From positions 70,814 to 134,813 of IMG/VR virus record IMGVR_UViG_3300025875_000001: DNA of 64,000 bases. The stretch is one strand, 5' to 3'. The DNA is from a virus. Numbering within the stretch: the first letter of the stretch is position 1; each line of letters begins with the position of its first letter. The notes beneath the pieces were generated by a model, which was not told the origin of the DNA, made no database searches, and was given only the letters and a program-made list of their open reading frames with translations. Below, piece after piece: positions 2,776-59,198 of the stretch. The position numbers and the translations under genes are program-made.

Positions 2776-2844
2776 GCGGGTCGCTAGGAATCGAACCTAG
2801 ATACATCGTGGCTTGATTAAGCTTTACCATTAAGCTACGACCCT
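2776..2844 (-). pseudogene. Degenerate short tRNA (possible Gly GCC remnant)
   Basis: Intact D arm GCTT-AATGGTA-AAGC and T arm CTAGG-TTCGATT-CCTAG; anticodon stem only 3 bp; ~69 nt. Confidence 0.55.
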
Positions 2845-4737: not shown

Positions 4738-6474
4738 TTAAACTGCCCCCAAAATCTCAATAGGTCCGGCCATAAGGCGTCGAATAATCCGATAATCAGT
4801 ATGGGGAGGGTGATTGTCCTTCCAATATGCTACAGTTGCATTAGCATTATCTAGGCTCCCCCAGTCATCACCTTGCCAACCAAAAGGAATCCAACTGTCA
4901 GAGCCGTCGCTATACCACTGTGCGGCATACTCATACATTAAATCTCAACTCCTATTATCGAAATAGATTTGACTCAGTCCGCATGAGGCGATAGAGCCTT
5001 CGGAATCGAATACGATGCAGCAGATTCTTAATCATTAAATCTCAACTCCCGCGTTGGTAAGGGTGACATAAGCCATTTCACAAACACCTGCCAGATTAGA
5101 ATTCTTCGCATAACCGCTCGCATGCCACCCGGCCCAAGTGCGACCAAGTGCCAGCATAACATCTGCCATTCGCAACTGAATACCGCTGTCAACACCAAAG
5201 GTACCCTGACTGAATGCATAAGCAAAAGCATCCGGGTCAAAATCCATAGTGTTGAGTGCCTTTCCAATTGCCCGCGCCGCCTGTGCCTCAGTAGTCAGTG
5301 CCATAGATAACGCCTCCTAGATCGGTTGGTAATCCTGCTGTACCCGCCCCCTTAGAAGCTAAACCTAGTCAACACGCTTGCACTTTACAGAGCCCGACAG
5401 ATCGAACACGGCAGGCTCAGAGCAGCGGCAGTTATTCACGCTGTAGCCACAGTTGGCACACGGTGTCTTGCAGTAGACCATTCCGGCAGGCTCATCAAAG
5501 AGAATGTACTGCTGGTCAGTCCAATTGCGCCGGTGCGGGGCATGCTCGTTGGCCTTAGTCGTCTTAGGCTCCTTAGCAGTGTAAGCACCACCACTATCAG
5601 GATTGTCAAGATCACTAGAAGCCTCGGCCTCTGCCGCCATAGCCGTATTAATGCGCTTAGGCTTAGGGTCCGGCTTATTGTCGTCATCAAAAGTCATGCC
5701 AGTAGCCCTAGCAGCAGCCAAAGCATCCTTAGCAGCCTGACTAAACCTGCCTCGACTCGGCTTAGCAAGCGGCGGGTTGAGAGAACAAAGATACTCGCGC
5801 TGAGTAGTCATTAAATCATCCAATCTATTACGCTATTGATACCGTTATCGAAATTATTGCGATCATCCATATGCCCAGCACTAGAGCTGGAACCAAATGA
5901 TCCTATGATAATCAGTAAGAGTATTGCACCTCCCCAAATTAGGAATACTACCATGTACCAAGGCATTACTTAACCTTTGATACCTTAATAGTATATCCGT
6001 GAGGTAAAGTACCAATCTCATCAGTTAACTGCAACAGGCTAAGCTCCGCATCACTAATGAAATCTCCATCTTCATTGTAAATCTGAATGTAATACCACAT
6101 TAGTTCCCCCTATATGCATCAGCAGCCATTTCAAGCTGGGTGATCCACTCATCTTCCCGGTCAAGCTGGGCACGCATAGCAAGCTCAGCCTCATAGACAG
6201 GCATTTCAGCAGCCATGCTCACCCACTCATCCTGCACACAAGCCGCGCACGTCCAGACACCAGCCTCCGAGTGATAGTTGTGCCCATTGTCATACAGGGC
6301 AATCTCAGCGGCCTCATCATAGTCCGGCGCGGTGGCAAGCTCTCGCCCACAGTCTACAGACTCGCAAGTGATCGTGACCATATTCATACCCCTAAGATTA
6401 GGGAACCGGCCACATGAACCACACATGCCATATGGATTGTCTTTGTGCGCGTTGCACCATTGGCAGGTCATCAT
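4738..6474 (-). CDS. Cluster of small hypothetical early genes (4738-4938, 5035-5304, 5365-5823, 6100-6474)
   Basis: Co-oriented ORFs with AGGAG/GAGG-type RBS; 5365-5823 carries an RGRF AT-hook-like motif. Confidence 0.6.
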
Positions 6475-24760: not shown

Positions 24761-24767
24761 TATCTCT

Positions 24768-25082
24768 TGTAGGTGGGGAGAATCGAACTCCCGTCTTGAT
24801 ATCTTCTACAATAAAAATTAATTACAGCCATTCCGTATCCCCGGCGGGTCTTACTGGCAGTGCGGGTGTTACCAACTAGCTTACGCTAGGACTTGCAAGT
24901 ATTCTGTTCCAAGGTCCTCGCTACCCGGTAACTTAAAGAGTTACAAATGAATATTCGGCACAAAGTGCTTCATATTCTGCATCAATGTTGTCTGCATTTA
25001 TATTTTTGATCTGTTTTAAGTCTCTTATCAAAGACTGGCTGCGTTCTATAGTTTCATATACCAATCGATACCGGTCACCCAC
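24768..25082 (-). ncRNA. ssrA: tmRNA; tag ADNIDAEYEALCAEYSFVTL* (24995-24933)
   Basis: Acceptor GTGGGTG/CACCTAC-A with G3:U70; 5' GACCGGTATCGA D-like loop; T arm GGGAG-TTCGATT-CTCCC; P2 pairings TTGGTAT/ATATCAA and GCAGCC/GGCTGT; resume context ATAAAT-GCA. Confidence 0.88.
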
Positions 25083-34629: not shown

Positions 34630-35380
34630 TTTTGGAAAGGGCCTAGAATTAACCCCCTCCGTGACAGGCTTTAGTTGGAGTATTATTTCCCAACCTTTCC
34701 GCGTAGTCCCCCACGCACCTGCCGCGCCTAGTAAGTATAGCCTACTACTCTTTATGTCACAAGCTTACTCCACTTCGTTCGATTCAGATAAGAGCCGCTA
34801 AACCCCTACCCTGCACTACTTGAACATGAACACCCTTGGCCTTGCGAGCTTCCAGGTGGCCGGATTCCAAATTGGTCCGGCATTAAGGCGCTTTTGCTTT
34901 GTGACAGGAGAAGTCTTTTGCTTTTATGTATTTGCATTCATAGGCAATGGGACTCAGTCCCGGAGGGTTTGGTAAGAGATGTGCTTCTCCGCGAAGTTCC
35001 GTATCCTTTTGGGATATAGAATGCTTCACACCTCAATATCTTTCGGCTTGCGGGCCTACTCAAATCGTAATCCATTTCACGAACCCGCCGATCCGTTACT
35101 TTGTAGTACATGGATAACGCCCTTGATTGCGGTCTCGGACTATTTACCCTTACTAATCGAACATGATGCTTATGGTGGCGAACCACTACCCCTTTTACCC
35201 TGCCGGGTGACTACAGTCATTCGACCATTCGCCGGGCACTCACATCGCTACAACGCTCATCACATTGCTTAACGACTAGCTTTGTATGGTTGTACCTATT
35301 GCTAGGCGACAAGCAACCAGCCTGCCTTTCTATACGTTACCGTATATTATCGTGCCATACCACGTTCACGTTTTTAATTA
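34630..35380 (-). ncRNA. Large (~750 nt) structured ncRNA, GOLLD-like
   Basis: No credible ORF; many hairpins with UUCG/GNRA-type loops; long-range GAGGTGTG/CACATCTC stem; flanked by tRNAs. Confidence 0.7.
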
Positions 35381-35385
35381 TAAAG

Positions 35386-35457
35386 TAGGTCCCCGGAGAA
35401 TCGAACTCCGAATTTACGGGTAAGAACCGCAAGTTATAACCGTTTAACTAGAGACCC
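35386..35457 (-). tRNA. tRNA-Lys(CTT)
   Basis: TGCGG-TTCTTAC-CCGTA. Confidence 0.88.
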
Positions 35458-36915: not shown

Positions 36916-36942
36916 AATTATCCTTTGTTAGTAGTTATATTG

Positions 36943-37026
36943 CACATGCGGCTGGATTCGAACCAGCGGTAGCAAAAGCAACAGATTAACAGTCTGTCCC
37001 GACTCGCCAACGGTCGGCCCGCATGT
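36943..37026 (-). tRNA. tRNA-Asn(GTT) with long variable arm
   Basis: ACAGA-CTGTTAA-TCTGT; 13-nt variable region TGCTTTTGCTACC; G discriminator. Confidence 0.8.
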
Positions 37027-37123: not shown

Positions 37124-37313
37124 ATTGTCCCGATATTATTTACCCTCGGGAGCGGGGAATATGTGCCAATCAGTTTCCGTGCGCTTTGTTCAATTGGCAT
37201 GTGTGTCATCTGCTGTCGCTGTGAACTACCGACAATCGCCGGTAACGGGACTTGCACCCGCCTACATTTGTCCTTATCTCTGGATCAACCCTTATTCGAA
37301 TTCGGATTGCACG

Positions 37314-37384
37314 CTCCCCCACCTGGAATCGAACCAAGGTCATGCGATTAACAGTCGCAGGTTTTGCCGTTAAACTACAGGGGA
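37314..37384 (-). tRNA. tRNA-Asn(GTT), canonical
   Basis: TGCGA-CTGTTAA-TCGCA. Confidence 0.92.
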
Positions 37385-40568: not shown

Positions 40569-41109
40569 GTGAATAACTGCTTCCTTGCACGCTTTAGGGC
40601 ATCAATAAGTTCGTCCAATCGATCTTCATCAAGTTCTACAAACCAACCGGGGATTTGTGTGTCAACATCTTTCCATCCGCCGGTCATTCCATCATCTGAT
40701 GTGTATCTAGTTCTCAACTTTCCGCCAGGAAAGACAGTAGCAATATTAATCTTCTTAAATTCTTTATCCCATCCAACCCTAACGTAGCTAGTATCAAGCC
40801 AGCCGGTCGCCTGGAGTGGAAAATCTCTACCTGCTTCTACAATTATTTGCTTTGGCATCACGCCACTTCCAATCTGAGCATCACACTCTATAATTATTCA
40901 TTTTCCATACGCTTCAAATTTACATCTTGTCCGCGCATTCTATCTGCCTTGCCTTGTCTAATCCTGACCTGGCCGGGCAAAGAATTAATCCACTTCATCA
41001 TCTCTTGACGAATCAGTAAATCCATTTCGGGAGTGTAAGTTCCGGTATTGATATAATCTACTGGCAAACCATCTTCATAAACAAACATAGTCACTCCTAA
41101 TAATAATTG

Positions 41110-41194
41110 TAGGTGCGGAGGGATTCGAACCCCCGATGGGATATTCTCCGTTGGCTTAAAAGGCCACTCCACTCGGCCACTGTGGGACGCACCC
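41110..41194 (-). tRNA. tRNA-Lys(TTT) with long variable arm
   Basis: GTGGC-CTTTTAA-GCCAA; 16-nt variable region CGGAGAATATCCCATC. Confidence 0.8.
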
Positions 41195-41211
41195 ATGTGT
41201 TTAATTATAAT

Positions 41212-41280
41212 GCCTAGGTTACGGAGTCGAACCGCTCTGAGGATTATGTCCCCGTGCTCCCGTTACACTATATACCTAGG
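41212..41280 (-). pseudogene. tRNA-like gene with 5-nt anticodon loop
   Basis: Acceptor CCTAGGT/ACCTAGG, T loop TTCGACT, arm GGGGA-CATAA-TCCTC. Confidence 0.55.
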
Positions 41281-49667: not shown

Positions 49668-50561
49668 TTAAAAGTTACCTGGCGCTACCTGGAAGCATAC
49701 TAGACCAATGCTACGCCATGCGTCAACTACCTGCTGCCTGTCATCTAGCACAAACTGCACATCGTAATTGTCCCTGACGTATTCATTGAATAGTTCTAGC
49801 TTGACGATACTATCTTTCCTTTGGTCCCCGGTCTTTCGCATATACACCTTATCCCAGGGAACATCATTATCATTAAGCCAGTTTTGGGAATCAATACTAC
49901 TTATATCGTCCCGGCCGCTCATGATTATAATCATATACCCGGCTTCGTCTGCCCAACGAACAACCTCGGCAACATGATCAATTAGCTCATCGTCATATAC
50001 CTTAGTAAAATCATAGAACGAACGATGACCATTATTACGTGCCAGGGTACCATCAAGATCTACCAGAATAGCCTTCTTTGTACCCGGCTTTGCTACATAA
50101 GGTGCATGCGTTGGGTCGGGCTCAGGATATAGGTCAATCTCATTCAATGGATTCCGAACAAGATCTTGATGCTGCTTCTTGATTACTTCTTCTGGAACGA
50201 GCCTACCACCCATAGAGTGCCTTGTCCATACCCGGCCAATTGCCTTATTGACATCTATATCTACCTGCTTAACATCAAAAGTAGCATTGTGCTCTAGAGC
50301 AATAGCTGCAAAGTGACGCAAATACTTAGGACGGATGTTAGTGTTGTCAACAACCACATTGCACCCGGCCTTTAGCAGAGCATGGACACTAGCGTCTTCA
50401 ATAACACTAACTACTGTCTCATCAACACTAGCATAGTCCTTGAATACGGCTTCACGAATGTTGTCACGGCTTACCACCGCCCAACCTTCACGCTTTAGCT
50501 GCTCGACATATGTGCTCTTTCCACTACCACTAATACCACGCATACATAATAGCTTACTCAT
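49668..50561 (-). CDS. pseT: Polynucleotide 5'-kinase/3'-phosphatase (T4 PseT-like Pnkp)
   Basis: GISGSGKST P-loop, SRDNIR, VVDNTN; HAD motif ILVDLDGT; VLDDRQQVVDAWRSIGLVCFQVA. Confidence 0.92.
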   Translation of the reverse strand: MSKLLCMRGISGSGKSTYVEQLKREGWAVVSRDNIREAVFKDYASVDETVVSVIEDASVHALLKAGCNVVVDNTNIRPKYLRHFAAIALEHNATFDVKQVDIDVNKAIGRVWTRHSMGGRLVPEEVIKKQHQDLVRNPLNEIDLYPEPDPTHAPYVAKPGTKKAILVDLDGTLARNNGHRSFYDFTKVYDDELIDHVAEVVRWADEAGYMIIIMSGRDDISSIDSQNWLNDNDVPWDKVYMRKTGDQRKDSIVKLELFNEYVRDNYDVQFVLDDRQQVVDAWRSIGLVCFQVAPGNF

Positions 50562-51122: not shown

Positions 51123-51758
51123 TCAGAAATCCCTTGTCTTTAGCTTAAACATTAGTCGCTTACCAGCATTGTTTGTTAGCTCTACTGGTGACTTAGCAAT
51201 AATGCCCTCAGCCTGTACCGGCCGAATTGCGAATGTGCTACCAAAGCCATCTCGGCATGCAGCTATAATGGCATCAAGATCATACATACCTAAATTTGGC
51301 GCTGTATCAATTTGAAGTTCAGCCACACATGCATAAAAGTCAGCAGGTGACAGCCACAAATCATTTGCACGCACATCGAACGCCCTGAACTCTACATCAT
51401 TGGAGTAGTTTCCACCACCATTGATCTTAGGACCATATGACTCACCGTAAACTGTTAGCGAATCCAGACCAAACCTGTCCATAAGATCATTAGCTGCCGG
51501 ATGGATTGCATGAACTGTATCGATAAGGCTATTTTCTACCGGCGATGGGAGGTTAGCATTAGCTGTGCGCCCACCAAATGACCATACAACATCACCATCT
51601 TCATAGCCAAAACGAATCCACGTAGAAGTGCCGTCAATTTTTTCTGTAACGCTCCATCTATCTAGTAGTGCAAACTCCGGTCGTGTAAATTCGCCGGGTA
51701 TAATCTTAAAATTACTATCACGCTTAAACAGGGTATCTATTTTATTATAGTAGTCCAT
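51123..51758 (-). CDS. Rnl2-family RNA ligase (adenylyltransferase domain)
   Basis: TEKIDGT (motif I), YGESYG, FRAFDV, EGIIAK, MFKLKT. Confidence 0.82.
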
Positions 51759-52000
51759 CTTTACCTCTCTTGTTTTGGGCCTGCTCACTGGCTGTAGCCC
51801 ATCTACAATTATCTGGAGTATAGTCGCCATTTACATCTATTCTATCTAACGTCCTATCCTCCGGCCTTACGCCCATATCCTCTAAGAAATTAACGAACTC
51901 AGACCAACGGTCGCATACCCTAATGCCTCTGCCACCGTAATGTTTATAGTTTTTATTTAGCTGATTAGAGCACCTAGCTCGCATCGCAATCCAAGACCAC
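51745..52000 (-). pseudogene. 3' half of an HNH-type endonuclease
   Basis: SWIAMRARC...[17 protein letters not shown]...[20 protein letters not shown]; no N-terminus. Confidence 0.75.
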
Positions 52001-52633: not shown

Positions 52634-52719
52634 TGACGCAGACGGGGATCGAACCCGCGACTCCTTTCGGAGTACTAGATTGAAAGTCTAGCTACCAGTG
52701 CCAACACAGTCACTGCGCC
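52634..52719 (-). tRNA. tRNA-Glu(TTC) with long variable arm
   Basis: CTAGA-CTTTCAA-TCTAG; variable arm ACTCC-GAAA-GGAGT. Confidence 0.82.
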
Positions 52720-55284: not shown

Positions 55285-55285
55285 G

Positions 55286-55357
55286 TGTGCCCACTCGGAT
55301 TCGAACCGAGATGTTAGATTTTAGAGGTCCATCAGTTACCTTTACTGACATAGGCGC
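55286..55357 (-). tRNA. tRNA with CUA anticodon (amber suppressor; Pyl-like loop)
   Basis: TGGAC-CTCTAAA-ATCTA; D stem TCAGT/ACTGA; T arm CTCGG-TTCGAAT-CCGAG. Confidence 0.75.
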
Positions 55358-56639: not shown

Positions 56640-59198
56640 CTAAATCATAGTTATTCTACTAAAATAGTCTGAAAGATCATCCGGCATCTCCATCGTTGGA
56701 GGCTTAATAATTACATTACCCGGCCTTTCATCTAGACTATTTCTATTCTCCTTTTTTATATCTTGTATCGTTCTTACTTCTACTATATTTGACTGTTCCG
56801 GCCTTGCCGTTGACAACGCATTGAATATAGCACCACATGTAGCATCTGCCAAGTCTTTAGTGCCTGATCTTGGATGGTCAACTTTATCGTCATTCGTGAT
56901 TCTGAGCTGTAGCAACTCTTTTTTTAACAGCTCTATATCTGGCATAATGACTCTATGCTCACCGACAGCACCGGCCATATCTTGATAATGTTTCTTGGCC
57001 ACTGAAAGCTTTTCGGTAGGAATGCCGAATTTCTCTAAATAATTACGCATATCATCAGATTCCCACTGATCGAAAGTTACTTTCTTGATATTAAATCCCC
57101 GGCGATACAAAGAAACAATATACTCCCTTACCTCAGTGAAGTCAACAGACTTTTCCTTGGTGGGCGTCCACCATCTTACAGCATCAACATACACTACAGG
57201 TGCGGCATCTGTAAAGGTGTTGACAATCTTCATAGACTGCCAGCTCTCTACGTGAGCCAAGCTCACAGCACAGTTATCATGCTTACGAGCCAAATCAACA
57301 TGGATATAATATTCTTTAGTGTCATCTGGTCTAAAGAAATACTGAAAAGTCCCGTCTTCACTTACTCCATTACGCCCGATCATGGCATCATCAATCTTTT
57401 GCCTATCCTTAAAGAAGGCGTCAATTGCCTCGGCTGGCTGACAGGCAAAACGTCCTGTAGCATCTGGCTTATTACGATAAAAAGCGGTTACATATTCTTG
57501 ATTGGTTATCTTTTTGGTTGGATTTACTTCCCATGTTGGCCTCCGCAAAGCAAATACGTATGGAATCTTATAAGAAAGAATATCATCTTCTTCCCACTCA
57601 ATGATTACTCTATTACTTTCGCTATCAGGCAAATCTGGATTCAGAGGGACAGCCACTCTTTTAGGAGTAGTAACCTTTTCTTCGATTACAGAAGCATAGT
57701 GAGTACTAATGAAATCACCCTTGTAACGGGGGAATGACAACAATACAACTTTCCCATAAATACCAAAACGAGAGTCAACAGACGCTCTATACATATTGTA
57801 AACTGCGTCGGCGGTCTTCTTTGATTCTGACGTAGACTCGGTGGCAAATCCTGAAATCTCATCAAGTACCACCATTATAGTGTTATAACCCTCCCAAGCT
57901 TCACGCTCTGAATGACCAGAATATAAATTAATATTTTTATCAAACTTAACCTCTCCAGACTGAGCTGGTTCACCATTATCTTTAGCATCATATTTGCCCT
58001 TGAAATAATTACTTTTCTTCAAAAGCCTAACGACACCTTTAAAAAATACATTCTTAGCTTGATCTGAGTTAATAGCAATATTAATAATATCGAAAGAGTC
58101 ACCACTTGGTTTATCAAAGTACTTGGCTGGGTTTTTTAGACACATAAGTAAATAAACCAAATAAGCACAACTAAAGGTTGAAAGCATATCTTTACCAGAT
58201 TGATGACTTATTCTTAGATTACCTATATAGTTATGTGTTTCTGGTTGTGTAAGAGTCCAATAATCTCCTTCACCCTTCCGGCGAATCCAGGTGATTTTAT
58301 CCCAAAATAGACCATCTTTTACTTTACCTTTTCTCTTAGTTAATATCCAAGTATACTTGTTTGGGTAAGTAATTTTATATGGCTGGCCAACTCTTGCCCA
58401 TGCATGCTGAATATCTTGCCCCAATTGATATGAATTAGTTACAAACCGTTCACCCTCAATACAAACTTTACGCAAGAACATTTCAAGCACTCTATTATCA
58501 GACTTCCACAAGTCTGCTGGTATTGCTGCATTAGGATCCGTTGAATCAAGAGTATCTACTATTTCTTTTAGACGCATGCTTGAAATGTTAATTGGATTAA
58601 CAACATCGAATCCAATAGCAGTAGCTATTAAGTCACCCTCTTTTAGCTCCACCGCTGGAACCCATCTACCCCAATTTACTTTATTTTCAAACTTCTTCCA
58701 AGGCATTGCATAATATTGATGACCAACATATACAGTCTCTCTAGTACCTGAAATAGTCTCTACCTCTATCATTTGCCCTCGGCCTTCGTGGAAAGCTTCT
58801 GTGGCATATTGTGGAGTAAGGCTTAAGTCTTCATTCATGCCGACAACTAATGTATCAGACTTAATTGAATCTAGACGTTGCCAAGCCCCGGTATTTGCAT
58901 TAAACACCGGGGTCTCGGGAGCATGACAACCTTTACCAAACTGCAAAATTACTTCTGTCTCAGTTTGATCCCAACGCTTTTCCGCCTCCATAGGAGAGAG
59001 ATATTCGTATAGAGTTTCTTTTCTATAAATTTGTGTAGAACGCAACACGGCTTCACGTTGATATGGACTTAACCTTACATCTGGCTCATTAAGATACCTT
59101 TCGTCAGCAATAAAGGTATCAATATCAACCGGCTTTTCTGCAAGATCGCCGTCATCTAATGAATTTAGGATACCGTCAAAATCAAACAGGGACGACAA
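56640..59198 (-). CDS. terL: Terminase large subunit (intein-containing)
   Basis: Walker A GKG|SGKD, Walker B VVLDEISGF, nuclease motif YIHVDLA, C-terminal DHPRSGTKDLADA. Confidence 0.92.
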   Translation of the reverse strand: MSSLFDFDGILNSLDDGDLAEKPVDIDTFIADERYLNEPDVRLSPYQREAVLRSTQIYRKETLYEYLSPMEAEKRWDQTETEVILQFGKGCHAPETPVFNANTGAWQRLDSIKSDTLVVGMNEDLSLTPQYATEAFHEGRGQMIEVETISGTRETVYVGHQYYAMPWKKFENKVNWGRWVPAVELKEGDLIATAIGFDVVNPINISSMRLKEIVDTLDSTDPNAAIPADLWKSDNRVLEMFLRKVCIEGERFVTNSYQLGQDIQHAWARVGQPYKITYPNKYTWILTKRKGKVKDGLFWDKITWIRRKGEGDYWTLTQPETHNYIGNLRISHQSGKDMLSTFSCAYLVYLLMCLKNPAKYFDKPSGDSFDIINIAINSDQAKNVFFKGVVRLLKKSNYFKGKYDAKDNGEPAQSGEVKFDKNINLYSGHSEREAWEGYNTIMVVLDEISGFATESTSESKKTADAVYNMYRASVDSRFGIYGKVVLLSFPRYKGDFISTHYASVIEEKVTTPKRVAVPLNPDLPDSESNRVIIEWEEDDILSYKIPYVFALRRPTWEVNPTKKITNQEYVTAFYRNKPDATGRFACQPAEAIDAFFKDRQKIDDAMIGRNGVSEDGTFQYFFRPDDTKEYYIHVDLARKHDNCAVSLAHVESWQSMKIVNTFTDAAPVVYVDAVRWWTPTKEKSVDFTEVREYIVSLYRRGFNIKKVTFDQWESDDMRNYLEKFGIPTEKLSVAKKHYQDMAGAVGEHRVIMPDIELLKKELLQLRITNDDKVDHPRSGTKDLADATCGAIFNALSTARPEQSNIVEVRTIQDIKKENRNSLDERPGNVIIKPPTMEMPDDLSDYFSRITMI
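58200..58928 (-). mobile_element. 243-aa intein (Cys1...His-Gln) with degenerate endonuclease region
   Basis: CHAPETPV start, ELKEGDLIA, THNYIGNLRISHQ end followed by Ser; inserted in the P-loop. Confidence 0.85.

What the first reader, a model, noticed from the sequence alone, without database searches (positions are those of the whole stretch)
41110..41194. tRNA-Lys(UUU) with a 16-nt long variable arm
It is the only UUU decoder in the window, yet it has a class II-type arm (GGAG-AATA-TCC). tRNA-Lys(UUU) is the classic target of anticodon nucleases (e.g. PrrC; PARIS cleaves tRNA-Lys). With the Asn and Glu cases, this suggests a strategy of grafting variable arms to escape tRNA-cleaving defences, or deliberate mischarging, since SerRS and LeuRS recognise long arms.
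Basis: partly seen in the sequence, partly recalled or inferred. Interest (0 to 1): 0.72.

Follow-up and report, generated by a model that had tools for sequence, protein, structure and literature searches.

The report
Phage lysine tRNA with extra arm
This phage gene is a real lysine tRNA built with an extra hairpin arm that textbooks reserve for serine, leucine and tyrosine tRNAs; the same design recurs in many phages and in a few bacterial chromosomes, almost certainly still carries lysine, and I found no paper describing it.

Summary
Window 41110-41194 (- strand) is an 85-nt tRNA with anticodon UUU, discriminator A73 and a 16-nt variable region (3-bp hairpin plus CAUC tail). It is the only UUU tRNA in the complete 134.8-kb phage genome.

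It is not a one-off. A pattern scan recovered 80 distinct long-arm tRNA-Lys(UUU) sequences from phage contigs, and their extra helix covaries strongly. Cultured phages carry such genes, annotated simply as tRNA-Lys. Pseudomonas phage phiKZ's tRNA-Asn has the same arm design. Three Actinomycetota genomes carry the long-arm form in the chromosome as their only detected UUU tRNA. This scan had already noted the class on other DNA.

Mischarging is not supported. The discriminator is A73, not G73; the arm is short; and AAA codons in the phage DnaE sit at Lys/Arg positions. The tRNA most likely supplies lysine for AAA, which makes up 46% of this low-GC phage's Lys codons. The host is probably a high-GC actinobacterium, though this is inferred rather than shown.

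Escape from tRNA-cutting defences is plausible. The phage also encodes polynucleotide kinase-phosphatase (Pnkp) and an RNA ligase, and a third of the long-arm arrays also keep a normal copy. This idea remains untested.

The parts
41110..41194 (-). tRNA-Lys(UUU), 85 nt, class-II-like body; discriminator A at 41110; no CCA encoded
   Evidence: ARAGORN; Rfam RF00005 at 49.4 bits; MFE cloverleaf
41158..41160 (-). Anticodon UUU, inside the loop CUUUUAA (41156-41162)
   Evidence: ARAGORN places the anticodon at position 35; Rfam alignment
41135..41150 (-). 16-nt variable region C-GGA-GAAUA-UCC-CAUC: 1-nt spacer, 3-bp stem, 5-nt loop, 4-nt 3' tail
   Evidence: Same layout as the family (1-nt spacer, 3-5 bp stem, mostly GNRA loop, CAUC tail). 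Helix covariation
41169..41185 (-). D arm CCAC-AGUGGCCGA-GUGG. It is class-II-like and unlike the TAGCTCAGTTGGTAGAGC D arm of class I tRNA-Lys(UUU) in related phages
35385..35457 (-). Ordinary class I tRNA-Lys(CUU), 73 nt, in the same phage
36942..37026 (-). Long-variable-region tRNA-Asn(GUU), 85 nt, discriminator G. A normal 72-nt copy lies at 37313-37384
52634..52719 (-). Long-arm tRNA-Glu(UUC), 5-bp stem capped by GAAA
49668..50561 (-). Polynucleotide kinase-phosphatase (Pnkp), an RNA-end healing enzyme
   Evidence: Pfam PF25109 at 3.2e-48 and AAA_33 at 5e-17
51123..51830 (-). RNA ligase, the sealing partner of Pnkp
   Evidence: Pfam PF09414 at 2.2e-14

Best explanation
The gene encodes a working elongator tRNA-Lys(UUU) on a class-II-like body. 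It belongs to a large, sequence-diverse lineage of long-variable-arm lysine tRNAs that live mainly in phage tRNA arrays. Inferred: the host LysRS charges it with lysine, since LysRS reads chiefly the anticodon and A73. Inferred: it then reads AAA, which makes up 46% of this 42%-GC phage's lysine codons. The host is probably a high-GC actinobacterium with little AAA-decoding capacity, but that is also inferred. Shown: the extra arm is kept by selection. Not shown: what the arm does. The leading idea is that the changed shape makes the tRNA a poor substrate for host enzymes that cut or disable the normal tRNA-Lys, alongside the phage's own Pnkp and RNA-ligase repair pair.
For: - Three methods agree on the cloverleaf.
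- It is the sole UUU tRNA of a complete genome with direct terminal repeats.
- AAA is 46% of Lys codons, 25.8 per 1000 codons.
- In DnaE aligned to 119 homologues, 32 AAA codons sit over K (46%) and R (16%), as AAG codons do, with no Ser, Leu or Tyr signal.
- The phage is related to Streptomyces phages (DnaE 56-61% identical; same gene layout as phage Tomas), and its endolysin carries LGFP repeats.
- The family has 80 distinct long-arm Lys(UUU) sequences. 18 of 20 cloverleaf pairs show compensatory changes. The arm helix is 92-96% paired, against 45-51% in shuffles. The discriminator is A in 61 of 80 and G in 1. With the anticodon loop and arm masked, nearest neighbours are enriched for class I Lys.
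- One Actinomycetota genome with a full set of 46 tRNAs has the long-arm form as its only UUU tRNA, in the chromosomal neighbourhood where relatives keep the class I gene.
- Cultured phages carry such genes, annotated as tRNA-Lys.
- Pnkp and RNA ligase are present in the phage.
- 27 of 83 long-arm arrays also hold a class I copy.
- Phage tRNA-Lys rescues infection from PrrC170 and PARIS in published work (PMC11555353, PMC11464382).
Against: - There are no expression, charging or cleavage data.
- The host is inferred, not known.
- The anticodon loop is fully canonical, so a nuclease that reads only the anticodon stem-loop should still cut it. From memory, PrrC accepts stem-loop substrates.
- The published escapes (T5 against PARIS) work through anticodon-stem changes, not through an arm (PMC11464382).
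- 18 of 19 related phages with a Lys(UUU) gene manage with a class I form.
- The codon test shows only that AAA evolved as Lys. It does not show what this tRNA carries.
- This copy's arm has a weak 3-bp stem and a non-GNRA loop.
Confidence: 0.72

Rival explanations
1. The arm is primarily armour. It blocks binding or cleavage by host tRNA-Lys-directed nucleases or other tRNA-disabling defence enzymes, and that is why phages keep this lineage.
For: The helix, the GNRA loop and the CAUC tail are conserved across very diverse sequences. Class I and long-arm copies coexist in 27 of 83 arrays, which suggests the two are not equivalent. True hits made up 77% of rows in the phage scan and 10% in the cellular scan. 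Pnkp and RNA ligase sit in this phage. PARIS AriB cuts between positions 40 and 41, next to the variable region (PMC11464382). The same arm design occurs on tRNA-Asn in phiKZ.
Against: No nuclease has been tested. The anticodon loop is unchanged. Known escapes use stem or loop substitutions. Schlafen-type and Septu nucleases actually act on long-arm tRNAs (abstracts). Three bacterial genomes use the design as an ordinary chromosomal gene.
Confidence: 0.3
2. The arm is a neutral hitch-hiker. A class II body acquired a UUU anticodon and A73, or recombined with a tRNA-Lys, and it persists because LysRS ignores the rest of the molecule.
For: The D arm is class-II-like, and nearest neighbours include Tyr and Ser tRNAs. 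The bacterial copy in G026 shares its D arm and T arm with that genome's tRNA-Ser(UGA). Lys UUU and Asn GUU differ by one anticodon base, and long-arm Lys and phiKZ Asn bodies are about 80% identical. Related phages do without the arm. Phage Tomas carries annotated tRNA-Leu and tRNA-Tyr genes of class I length, so arm gain and loss may be easy in this group.
Against: Purifying selection on the helix and its flanks persists across 80 diverged sequences. A neutral arm would not be expected to sit beside a class I copy in a third of arrays.
Confidence: 0.22
3. The tRNA is deliberately mischarged. SerRS, LeuRS or TyrRS charges it, so AAA is partly read as Ser, Leu or Tyr, like the nematode nev-tRNAs.
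For: A long arm is the main SerRS determinant. A73 and U35 are also Tyr and Leu elements. nev-tRNAs are a precedent (PMC3333845).
Against: The discriminator is A73, not G73, and G occurs in 1 of 80 family members. The stem is only 3 bp. G34 is absent. AAA codons lie over K/R, with no Ser, Leu or Tyr enrichment. AAA occurs at 26 per 1000 codons, so mistranslation would damage every protein. In G026 the design is the only UUU tRNA.
Confidence: 0.04
4. The gene is a decaying or non-functional tRNA.
For: G1.U72 and G27.A43 are non-Watson-Crick. The stability z-score is only -0.44. A decayed tRNA relic lies 10 nt upstream.
Against: All four canonical arms plus the extra arm, the T loop and the anticodon loop are intact, and the Rfam score is 49 bits. 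It is the only AAA reader in a phage that uses AAA heavily. It fits a conserved family.
Confidence: 0.03

Closest known systems
Canonical bacterial and phage class I tRNA-Lys(UUU), for example E. coli lysT or the 74-76-nt genes of related Streptomyces-type phages
   Same: Anticodon loop CUUUUAA, A73, a 7/5 acceptor/T geometry, a standard T loop, and the expected lysine identity and AAA decoding.
   Different: The variable region is 16 nt and forms a hairpin, instead of 4-6 nt. The D arm is class-II-like rather than TAGCTCAGTTGGTAGAGC.
Bacterial class II tRNAs (Ser, Leu, Tyr)
   Same: A long variable arm with a stem-loop, and the D-arm style. The arm length is closest to tRNA-Tyr (13 nt, 3 bp).
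   Different: The anticodon is UUU. The discriminator is not the G73 of Ser. There is no G34 as in Tyr. The family has a characteristic 4-nt CAUC tail and GNRA loops.
Nuclease-resistant phage tRNA-Lys: T5 against PARIS AriB (PMC11464382) and SP15 against PrrC170 (PMC11555353)
   Same: A phage-encoded tRNA-Lys(UUU) that could replace a host tRNA destroyed by defence systems.
   Different: Those tRNAs are class I and escape through anticodon stem-loop substitutions. Here the loop is canonical and the difference lies in the body. Resistance is untested.
Nematode nev-tRNAs (PMC3333845) and bacterial allo-tRNAs (PMC5389517)
   Same: Long-arm tRNAs carrying anticodons outside Ser, Leu and Tyr.
   Different: nev-tRNAs are eukaryotic and charged with leucine. 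allo-tRNAs have an 8/4 or 9/3 acceptor/T geometry and serine identity. This tRNA is 7/5, has A73, and shows no sign of recoding.
Long-arm tRNA-Asn(GUU) of Pseudomonas phage phiKZ, and long-arm tRNA-Lys of phages RcXuper, XacN1 and Caulobacter phages
   Same: The same arm design (1-nt spacer, 3-bp stem, GAAA loop, 4-nt tail), a class-II-like D arm, and a location in phage tRNA clusters.
   Different: Only about 70-78% identical to this copy. phiKZ's gene reads Asn and has G73. Public records annotate them without any comment on the arm.

Membership tests
tRNA (Rfam RF00005) | Full-length match to the covariance model above the gathering score | tested here: met
   49.4 bits against 29, model positions 1-71
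tRNA (Rfam RF00005) | 7-bp acceptor stem, 5-bp T stem and GTTCGAATC T loop | tested here: met
Class II (long-variable-arm) tRNA architecture | Variable region longer than 10 nt that forms a stem-loop | tested here: met
   16 nt with a 3-bp stem. The helix covaries in relatives
Class II (long-variable-arm) tRNA architecture | Isotype is Ser, Leu or (in bacteria) Tyr | tested here: not met
   The anticodon is UUU
Bacterial tRNA-Lys identity set | Anticodon U34 U35 U36 and discriminator A73 (established identity elements) | tested here: met
   Read directly from the sequence
Bacterial tRNA-Lys identity set | Aminoacylation by LysRS | not testable with these tools
   Indirect support only: AAA codons lie over K/R, and the design is the sole UUU tRNA in G026
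tRNA-Ser identity (SerRS substrate) | G73 together with a long, stable variable-arm helix | tested here: not met
   The discriminator is A73 and the stem has 3 bp. G73 occurs in 1 of 80 family members
Bacterial tRNA-Tyr identity | G34, U35, A73 and a long arm | tested here: not met
   U35, A73 and the arm are present, but position 34 is U and position 36 is U
allo-tRNA | 8/4 or 9/3 acceptor/T-stem geometry | tested here: not met
   The geometry is 7/5
Phage long-arm tRNA-Lys lineage (defined here) | 1-nt spacer, 3-5-bp stem, short loop, 4-nt CAYC tail, class-II-like D arm, UUU or CUU anticodon | tested here: met
   C-GGA-GAAUA-UCC-CAUC. The loop has 5 nt rather than the usual GNRA tetraloop
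Defence-resistant phage tRNA | Shown resistance to a host tRNA nuclease, and rescue of infection | not testable with these tools

The most novel reading that the evidence does not exclude
The long arm is a general phage counter-defence device. Under this reading, a whole lineage of 'armoured' Lys (and sister Asn) tRNAs has a reshaped body that lets it escape host nucleases or other enzymes that disable the normal tRNAs, while LysRS and AsnRS still charge it. The lineage would also have been captured by some Actinomycetota as their only AAA decoder.
Probability: 0.3. Interest if true: 0.8.

Novelty: new variant of a known kind. Interest (0 to 1): 0.62.

Why it matters
Textbooks restrict the long variable arm in bacteria and phages to Ser, Leu and Tyr tRNAs (plus Sec). 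Here a lysine tRNA carries it, within a conserved and widespread lineage. That lineage includes model phages and at least one bacterium that appears to rely on it for AAA. This shows that class IIb synthetase substrates tolerate the arm.

It also gives a concrete, testable candidate for a body-shape route of escape from tRNA-targeting immunity. That would be distinct from the anticodon-loop and anticodon-stem substitutions described so far.

It matters for annotation too. These genes are filed as plain tRNA-Lys or 'tRNA-OTHER' in public records.

Tried and rejected
- BLAST of the tRNA and of a 10-kb region against cultured phages found no close relative. The only hits were to tRNA-Tyr of Streptomyces phages.
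- The 331-aa neighbouring protein has no relatives in viral contigs.
- MAFFT plus RNAalifold on all 79 family members missed the arm helix because arm lengths differ. I replaced this with gap-free subsets of equal arm length.
- Stop-codon reassignment was considered because of the CUA-anticodon tRNA. I rejected it because reading through TAG, TGA or TAA raises ORF coverage about equally.
- Recent origin from another tRNA of the same phage was rejected, since no paralogue stands out.
- Testing AAA = Lys in the bacterium G026 failed. The 1432 codons I could align held no AAA at all.
- The tRNA-like stretch 10 nt upstream is a relic, not a second gene.
- ARAGORN did not find the tmRNA that Rfam finds.

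Full report
**Observation.** ARAGORN finds 33 tRNAs in the window, all on the minus strand, including tRNA-Lys(ttt) at 41109-41194. The Rfam tRNA model matches 41110-41194 end to end at 49.4 bits (gathering score 29). Its alignment places a 12-nt insertion exactly in the variable region. The minimum-free-energy fold is the same cloverleaf, and no rival fold moves the anticodon.

The RNA has these parts:
- a 7-bp acceptor stem (G1.U72)
- U8 C9
- a 4-bp D stem with the loop AGUGGCCGA
- an anticodon stem of four pairs plus G27.A43
- the loop CUUUUAA
- a 16-nt variable region, C-GGA-GAAUA-UCC-CAUC
- a standard T arm
- discriminator A, with no encoded CCA

It is the only UUU tRNA in the whole genome.

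**The genome.** The window is the last 64 kb of a complete 134,813-bp IMG/VR virus record with direct terminal repeats. Several features tie the virus to large Streptomyces phages:
- The DnaE-type polymerase is 56-61% identical to those of Streptomyces phages Wakanda, Gilson, NootNoot, Annadreamy and others.
- Phage Tomas has the same layout: tRNAs scattered among small ORFs, a tmRNA, an RNA ligase and a polynucleotide kinase.
- The endolysin carries LGFP repeats.

An actinobacterial host is therefore likely, but it is not shown. The genome is 42% GC, with GC3 of 0.34. AAA makes up 46% of lysine codons, or 25.8 per 1000 codons. A polynucleotide kinase-phosphatase (49668-50561) and an RNA ligase (51123-51830) lie nearby.

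**A family, not a singleton.** I scanned viral contigs for CTTTTAA followed 19-36 nt later by GGTTCGAATCC. Together with this window's gene and one from a related phage, they give 80 distinct sequences.
- *Cloverleaf:* 18 of 20 predicted pairs show compensatory changes.
- *Arm hairpin:* 78% of the variable regions form a hairpin of at least 3 bp, against 33% of shuffles. Mean energy is -2.70 against -0.64 kcal/mol.
- *Arm layout:* one unpaired base, a 3-5-bp stem, a GNRA loop (GAAA in 28 cases) and a 4-nt tail, most often CAUC.
- *Covariation, 15-nt arms:* on a gap-free subset of 22 sequences the helix is 95.5% paired, against 45% in shuffles and 23-44% when the partner is slid. All three pairs covary.
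- *Covariation, 17-nt arms:* in 16 sequences the helix is 92% paired against 51%, and four of four pairs covary.

The window's tRNA fits this layout except for its 5-nt loop. Its best full-length matches are other long-arm Lys(UUU) genes, at about 70-78% identity.

**Replacement, not insertion.** Among 25 related phage genomes, 19 have a Lys(UUU) gene by pattern. Eighteen of those are class I, with the canonical D arm. One (G014) has a long-arm gene in the slot after Lys(CUU) where relatives keep the class I gene. The long-arm genes also have a class-II-like D arm. So the arm was not simply inserted into the local gene. Instead, a member of a separate lineage took over the role.

With the anticodon loop and the arm masked, the nearest neighbours of the family are:
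- long-arm Lys(CUU): 27.5%, against a background of 0.6%
- class I Lys: 22.5% against 9.6%
- Tyr: 11% against 3.2%
- Ser: 11% against 4.5%

**Identity.** The discriminator is A in 61 family members, U in 18 and G in 1. That speaks against SerRS. In DnaE aligned with 119 homologues, the 32 AAA codons lie over K (46%) and R (16%), like the 58 AAG codons (55% and 14%). Among strongly conserved columns they lie over K five times and R once. GAA lies over E, and AAT and AAC over N. No recoding is visible, and read-through of each stop codon raises ORF coverage about equally.

**Cellular copies.** A closely similar scan (gap 20-32) of 596 Gb of prokaryote genomes gave only 12 long Lys(UUU) calls among 120 rows. 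Four of them sit in dense, phage-like tRNA arrays, and some others are intron-bearing archaeal genes.

Three Actinomycetota genomes (G026-G028) carry a long-arm gene, and in the two I examined (G026, G028) it lies among housekeeping genes. In all three it is the only pattern match for a Lys(UUU) tRNA. I fetched all 46 tRNAs of G026. The set is complete, with a 74-nt Lys(CUU) and an 85-nt long-arm tRNA as the sole UUU tRNA. That gene lies between a DsbA-like gene and a PrsW/aminotransferase cluster, the same neighbourhood that holds the class I gene in relatives G035, G039 and G068. Its D and T arms resemble that genome's tRNA-Ser(UGA).

In G026's order, 27 of 39 genomes match the pattern, and only G026 is confirmed as long. 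Two of those genomes, G042 and G067, are unpublished; no claim here depends on them. I could not test AAA = Lys in G026, because 1432 aligned codons held no AAA.

**Cultured phages.** Long-arm genes are annotated simply as tRNA-Lys in Rhodobacter phage RcXuper (88 nt, UUU) and Xanthomonas phage XacN1 (89 nt, CUU). BLAST also matches genes annotated as tRNA-Lys in Ruegeria and Caulobacter phages, and as 'tRNA-OTHER' in Cellulophaga phage phi4:1. Pseudomonas phage phiKZ's tRNA-Asn(GUU) is 87 nt long, has the same arm design and has G73.

**Function.** The most economical reading is a lysine-charged AAA reader that supplies a codon the phage uses heavily. Selection maintains the arm, but its purpose is not shown.

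Points in favour of a defence-escape role:
- 27 of 83 long-arm arrays also hold a class I Lys(UUU).
- The phage carries the Pnkp and RNA ligase pair.
- Phage tRNA-Lys is known to rescue infection from PrrC170 (PMC11555353) and from PARIS, whose AriB cuts between positions 40 and 41 (PMC11464382).

Points against:
- The anticodon loop is canonical.
- The known escapes use stem or loop changes.
- Most related phages lack the arm.

**Literature and earlier notes.** Five full-text searches found no description of long-arm tRNA-Lys in phages or Actinomycetota. Earlier notes of this scan report the same class on other genomes, so this window adds a member rather than a first sighting.

Noticed in passing
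window 41205-41273 (-): A tRNA relic lies 10 nt upstream of the tRNA-Lys. It keeps a perfect 7-bp acceptor stem and a T arm, but its D and anticodon arms are degenerate. Rfam finds nothing there, and ARAGORN calls it only at a relaxed threshold.
   Followed up: partly
window 36942-37026 (-) and 52634-52719 (-): Two more tRNAs outside Ser, Leu and Tyr have long variable regions. Asn(GUU) has G73, a poorly paired variable region and a normal copy at 37313-37384. Glu(UUC) has a perfect 5-bp stem capped by GAAA. Among class-II-type tRNAs of this genome, the long-arm Asn is the Lys tRNA's closest relative.
   Followed up: partly
L388 (G026:C15:31200-43200), tRNA at 5980-6064; also L304, L305: Three Actinomycetota genomes carry a chromosomal long-arm tRNA-Lys(UUU) as their only detected UUU tRNA. 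In G026 it lies in the neighbourhood where relatives keep the class I gene.
   Followed up: yes
L379 (Pseudomonas phage phiKZ, NC_004629.1 269557-269645): phiKZ's annotated tRNA-Asn is 87 nt long, with the same arm design as the lysine family (GGC-GAAA-GCC plus a CACC tail). Its body is about 80% identical to one long-arm tRNA-Lys.
   Followed up: partly
window 55285-55357 (-): A tRNA has anticodon CUA, so it would act as an amber suppressor (ARAGORN labels it 'Pyl'). TAG does not look reassigned, because read-through of any of the three stop codons lengthens ORFs about equally.
   Followed up: partly
whole genome; window 2776-2844 (-): No tRNA-Met or tRNA-Gln(UUG) was found, although CAA is 55% of Gln codons. 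Rfam finds a 34th tRNA at 41 bits that ARAGORN calls only at a relaxed threshold, as Gly(GCC) with a 4-bp T stem.
   Followed up: no
window 34638-35036 (-) and 24767-25082 (-): A GOLLD RNA (179.8 bits) and a tmRNA (68.9 bits) sit inside the tRNA region. ARAGORN does not detect the tmRNA.
   Followed up: no
L122 (Streptomyces phage Tomas, NC_070781.1): The related phage Tomas has annotated tRNA-Leu genes of 75-76 nt and a 72-nt tRNA-Tyr beside an 82-nt one. These are class I lengths for normally long-arm isotypes, so arm gain and loss may run both ways in this phage group.
   Followed up: no
L118:3223-6510 (-) (DnaE): AAA is used less often than AAG at strongly conserved lysine columns (5 of 32 against 23 of 58).
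   Followed up: no
L120:4472-7447 (-) and window 56640-59198 (-): The ribonucleotide reductase carries an intein with a LAGLIDADG domain. The 852-aa protein gives a weak match to the intein splicing domain.
   Followed up: no
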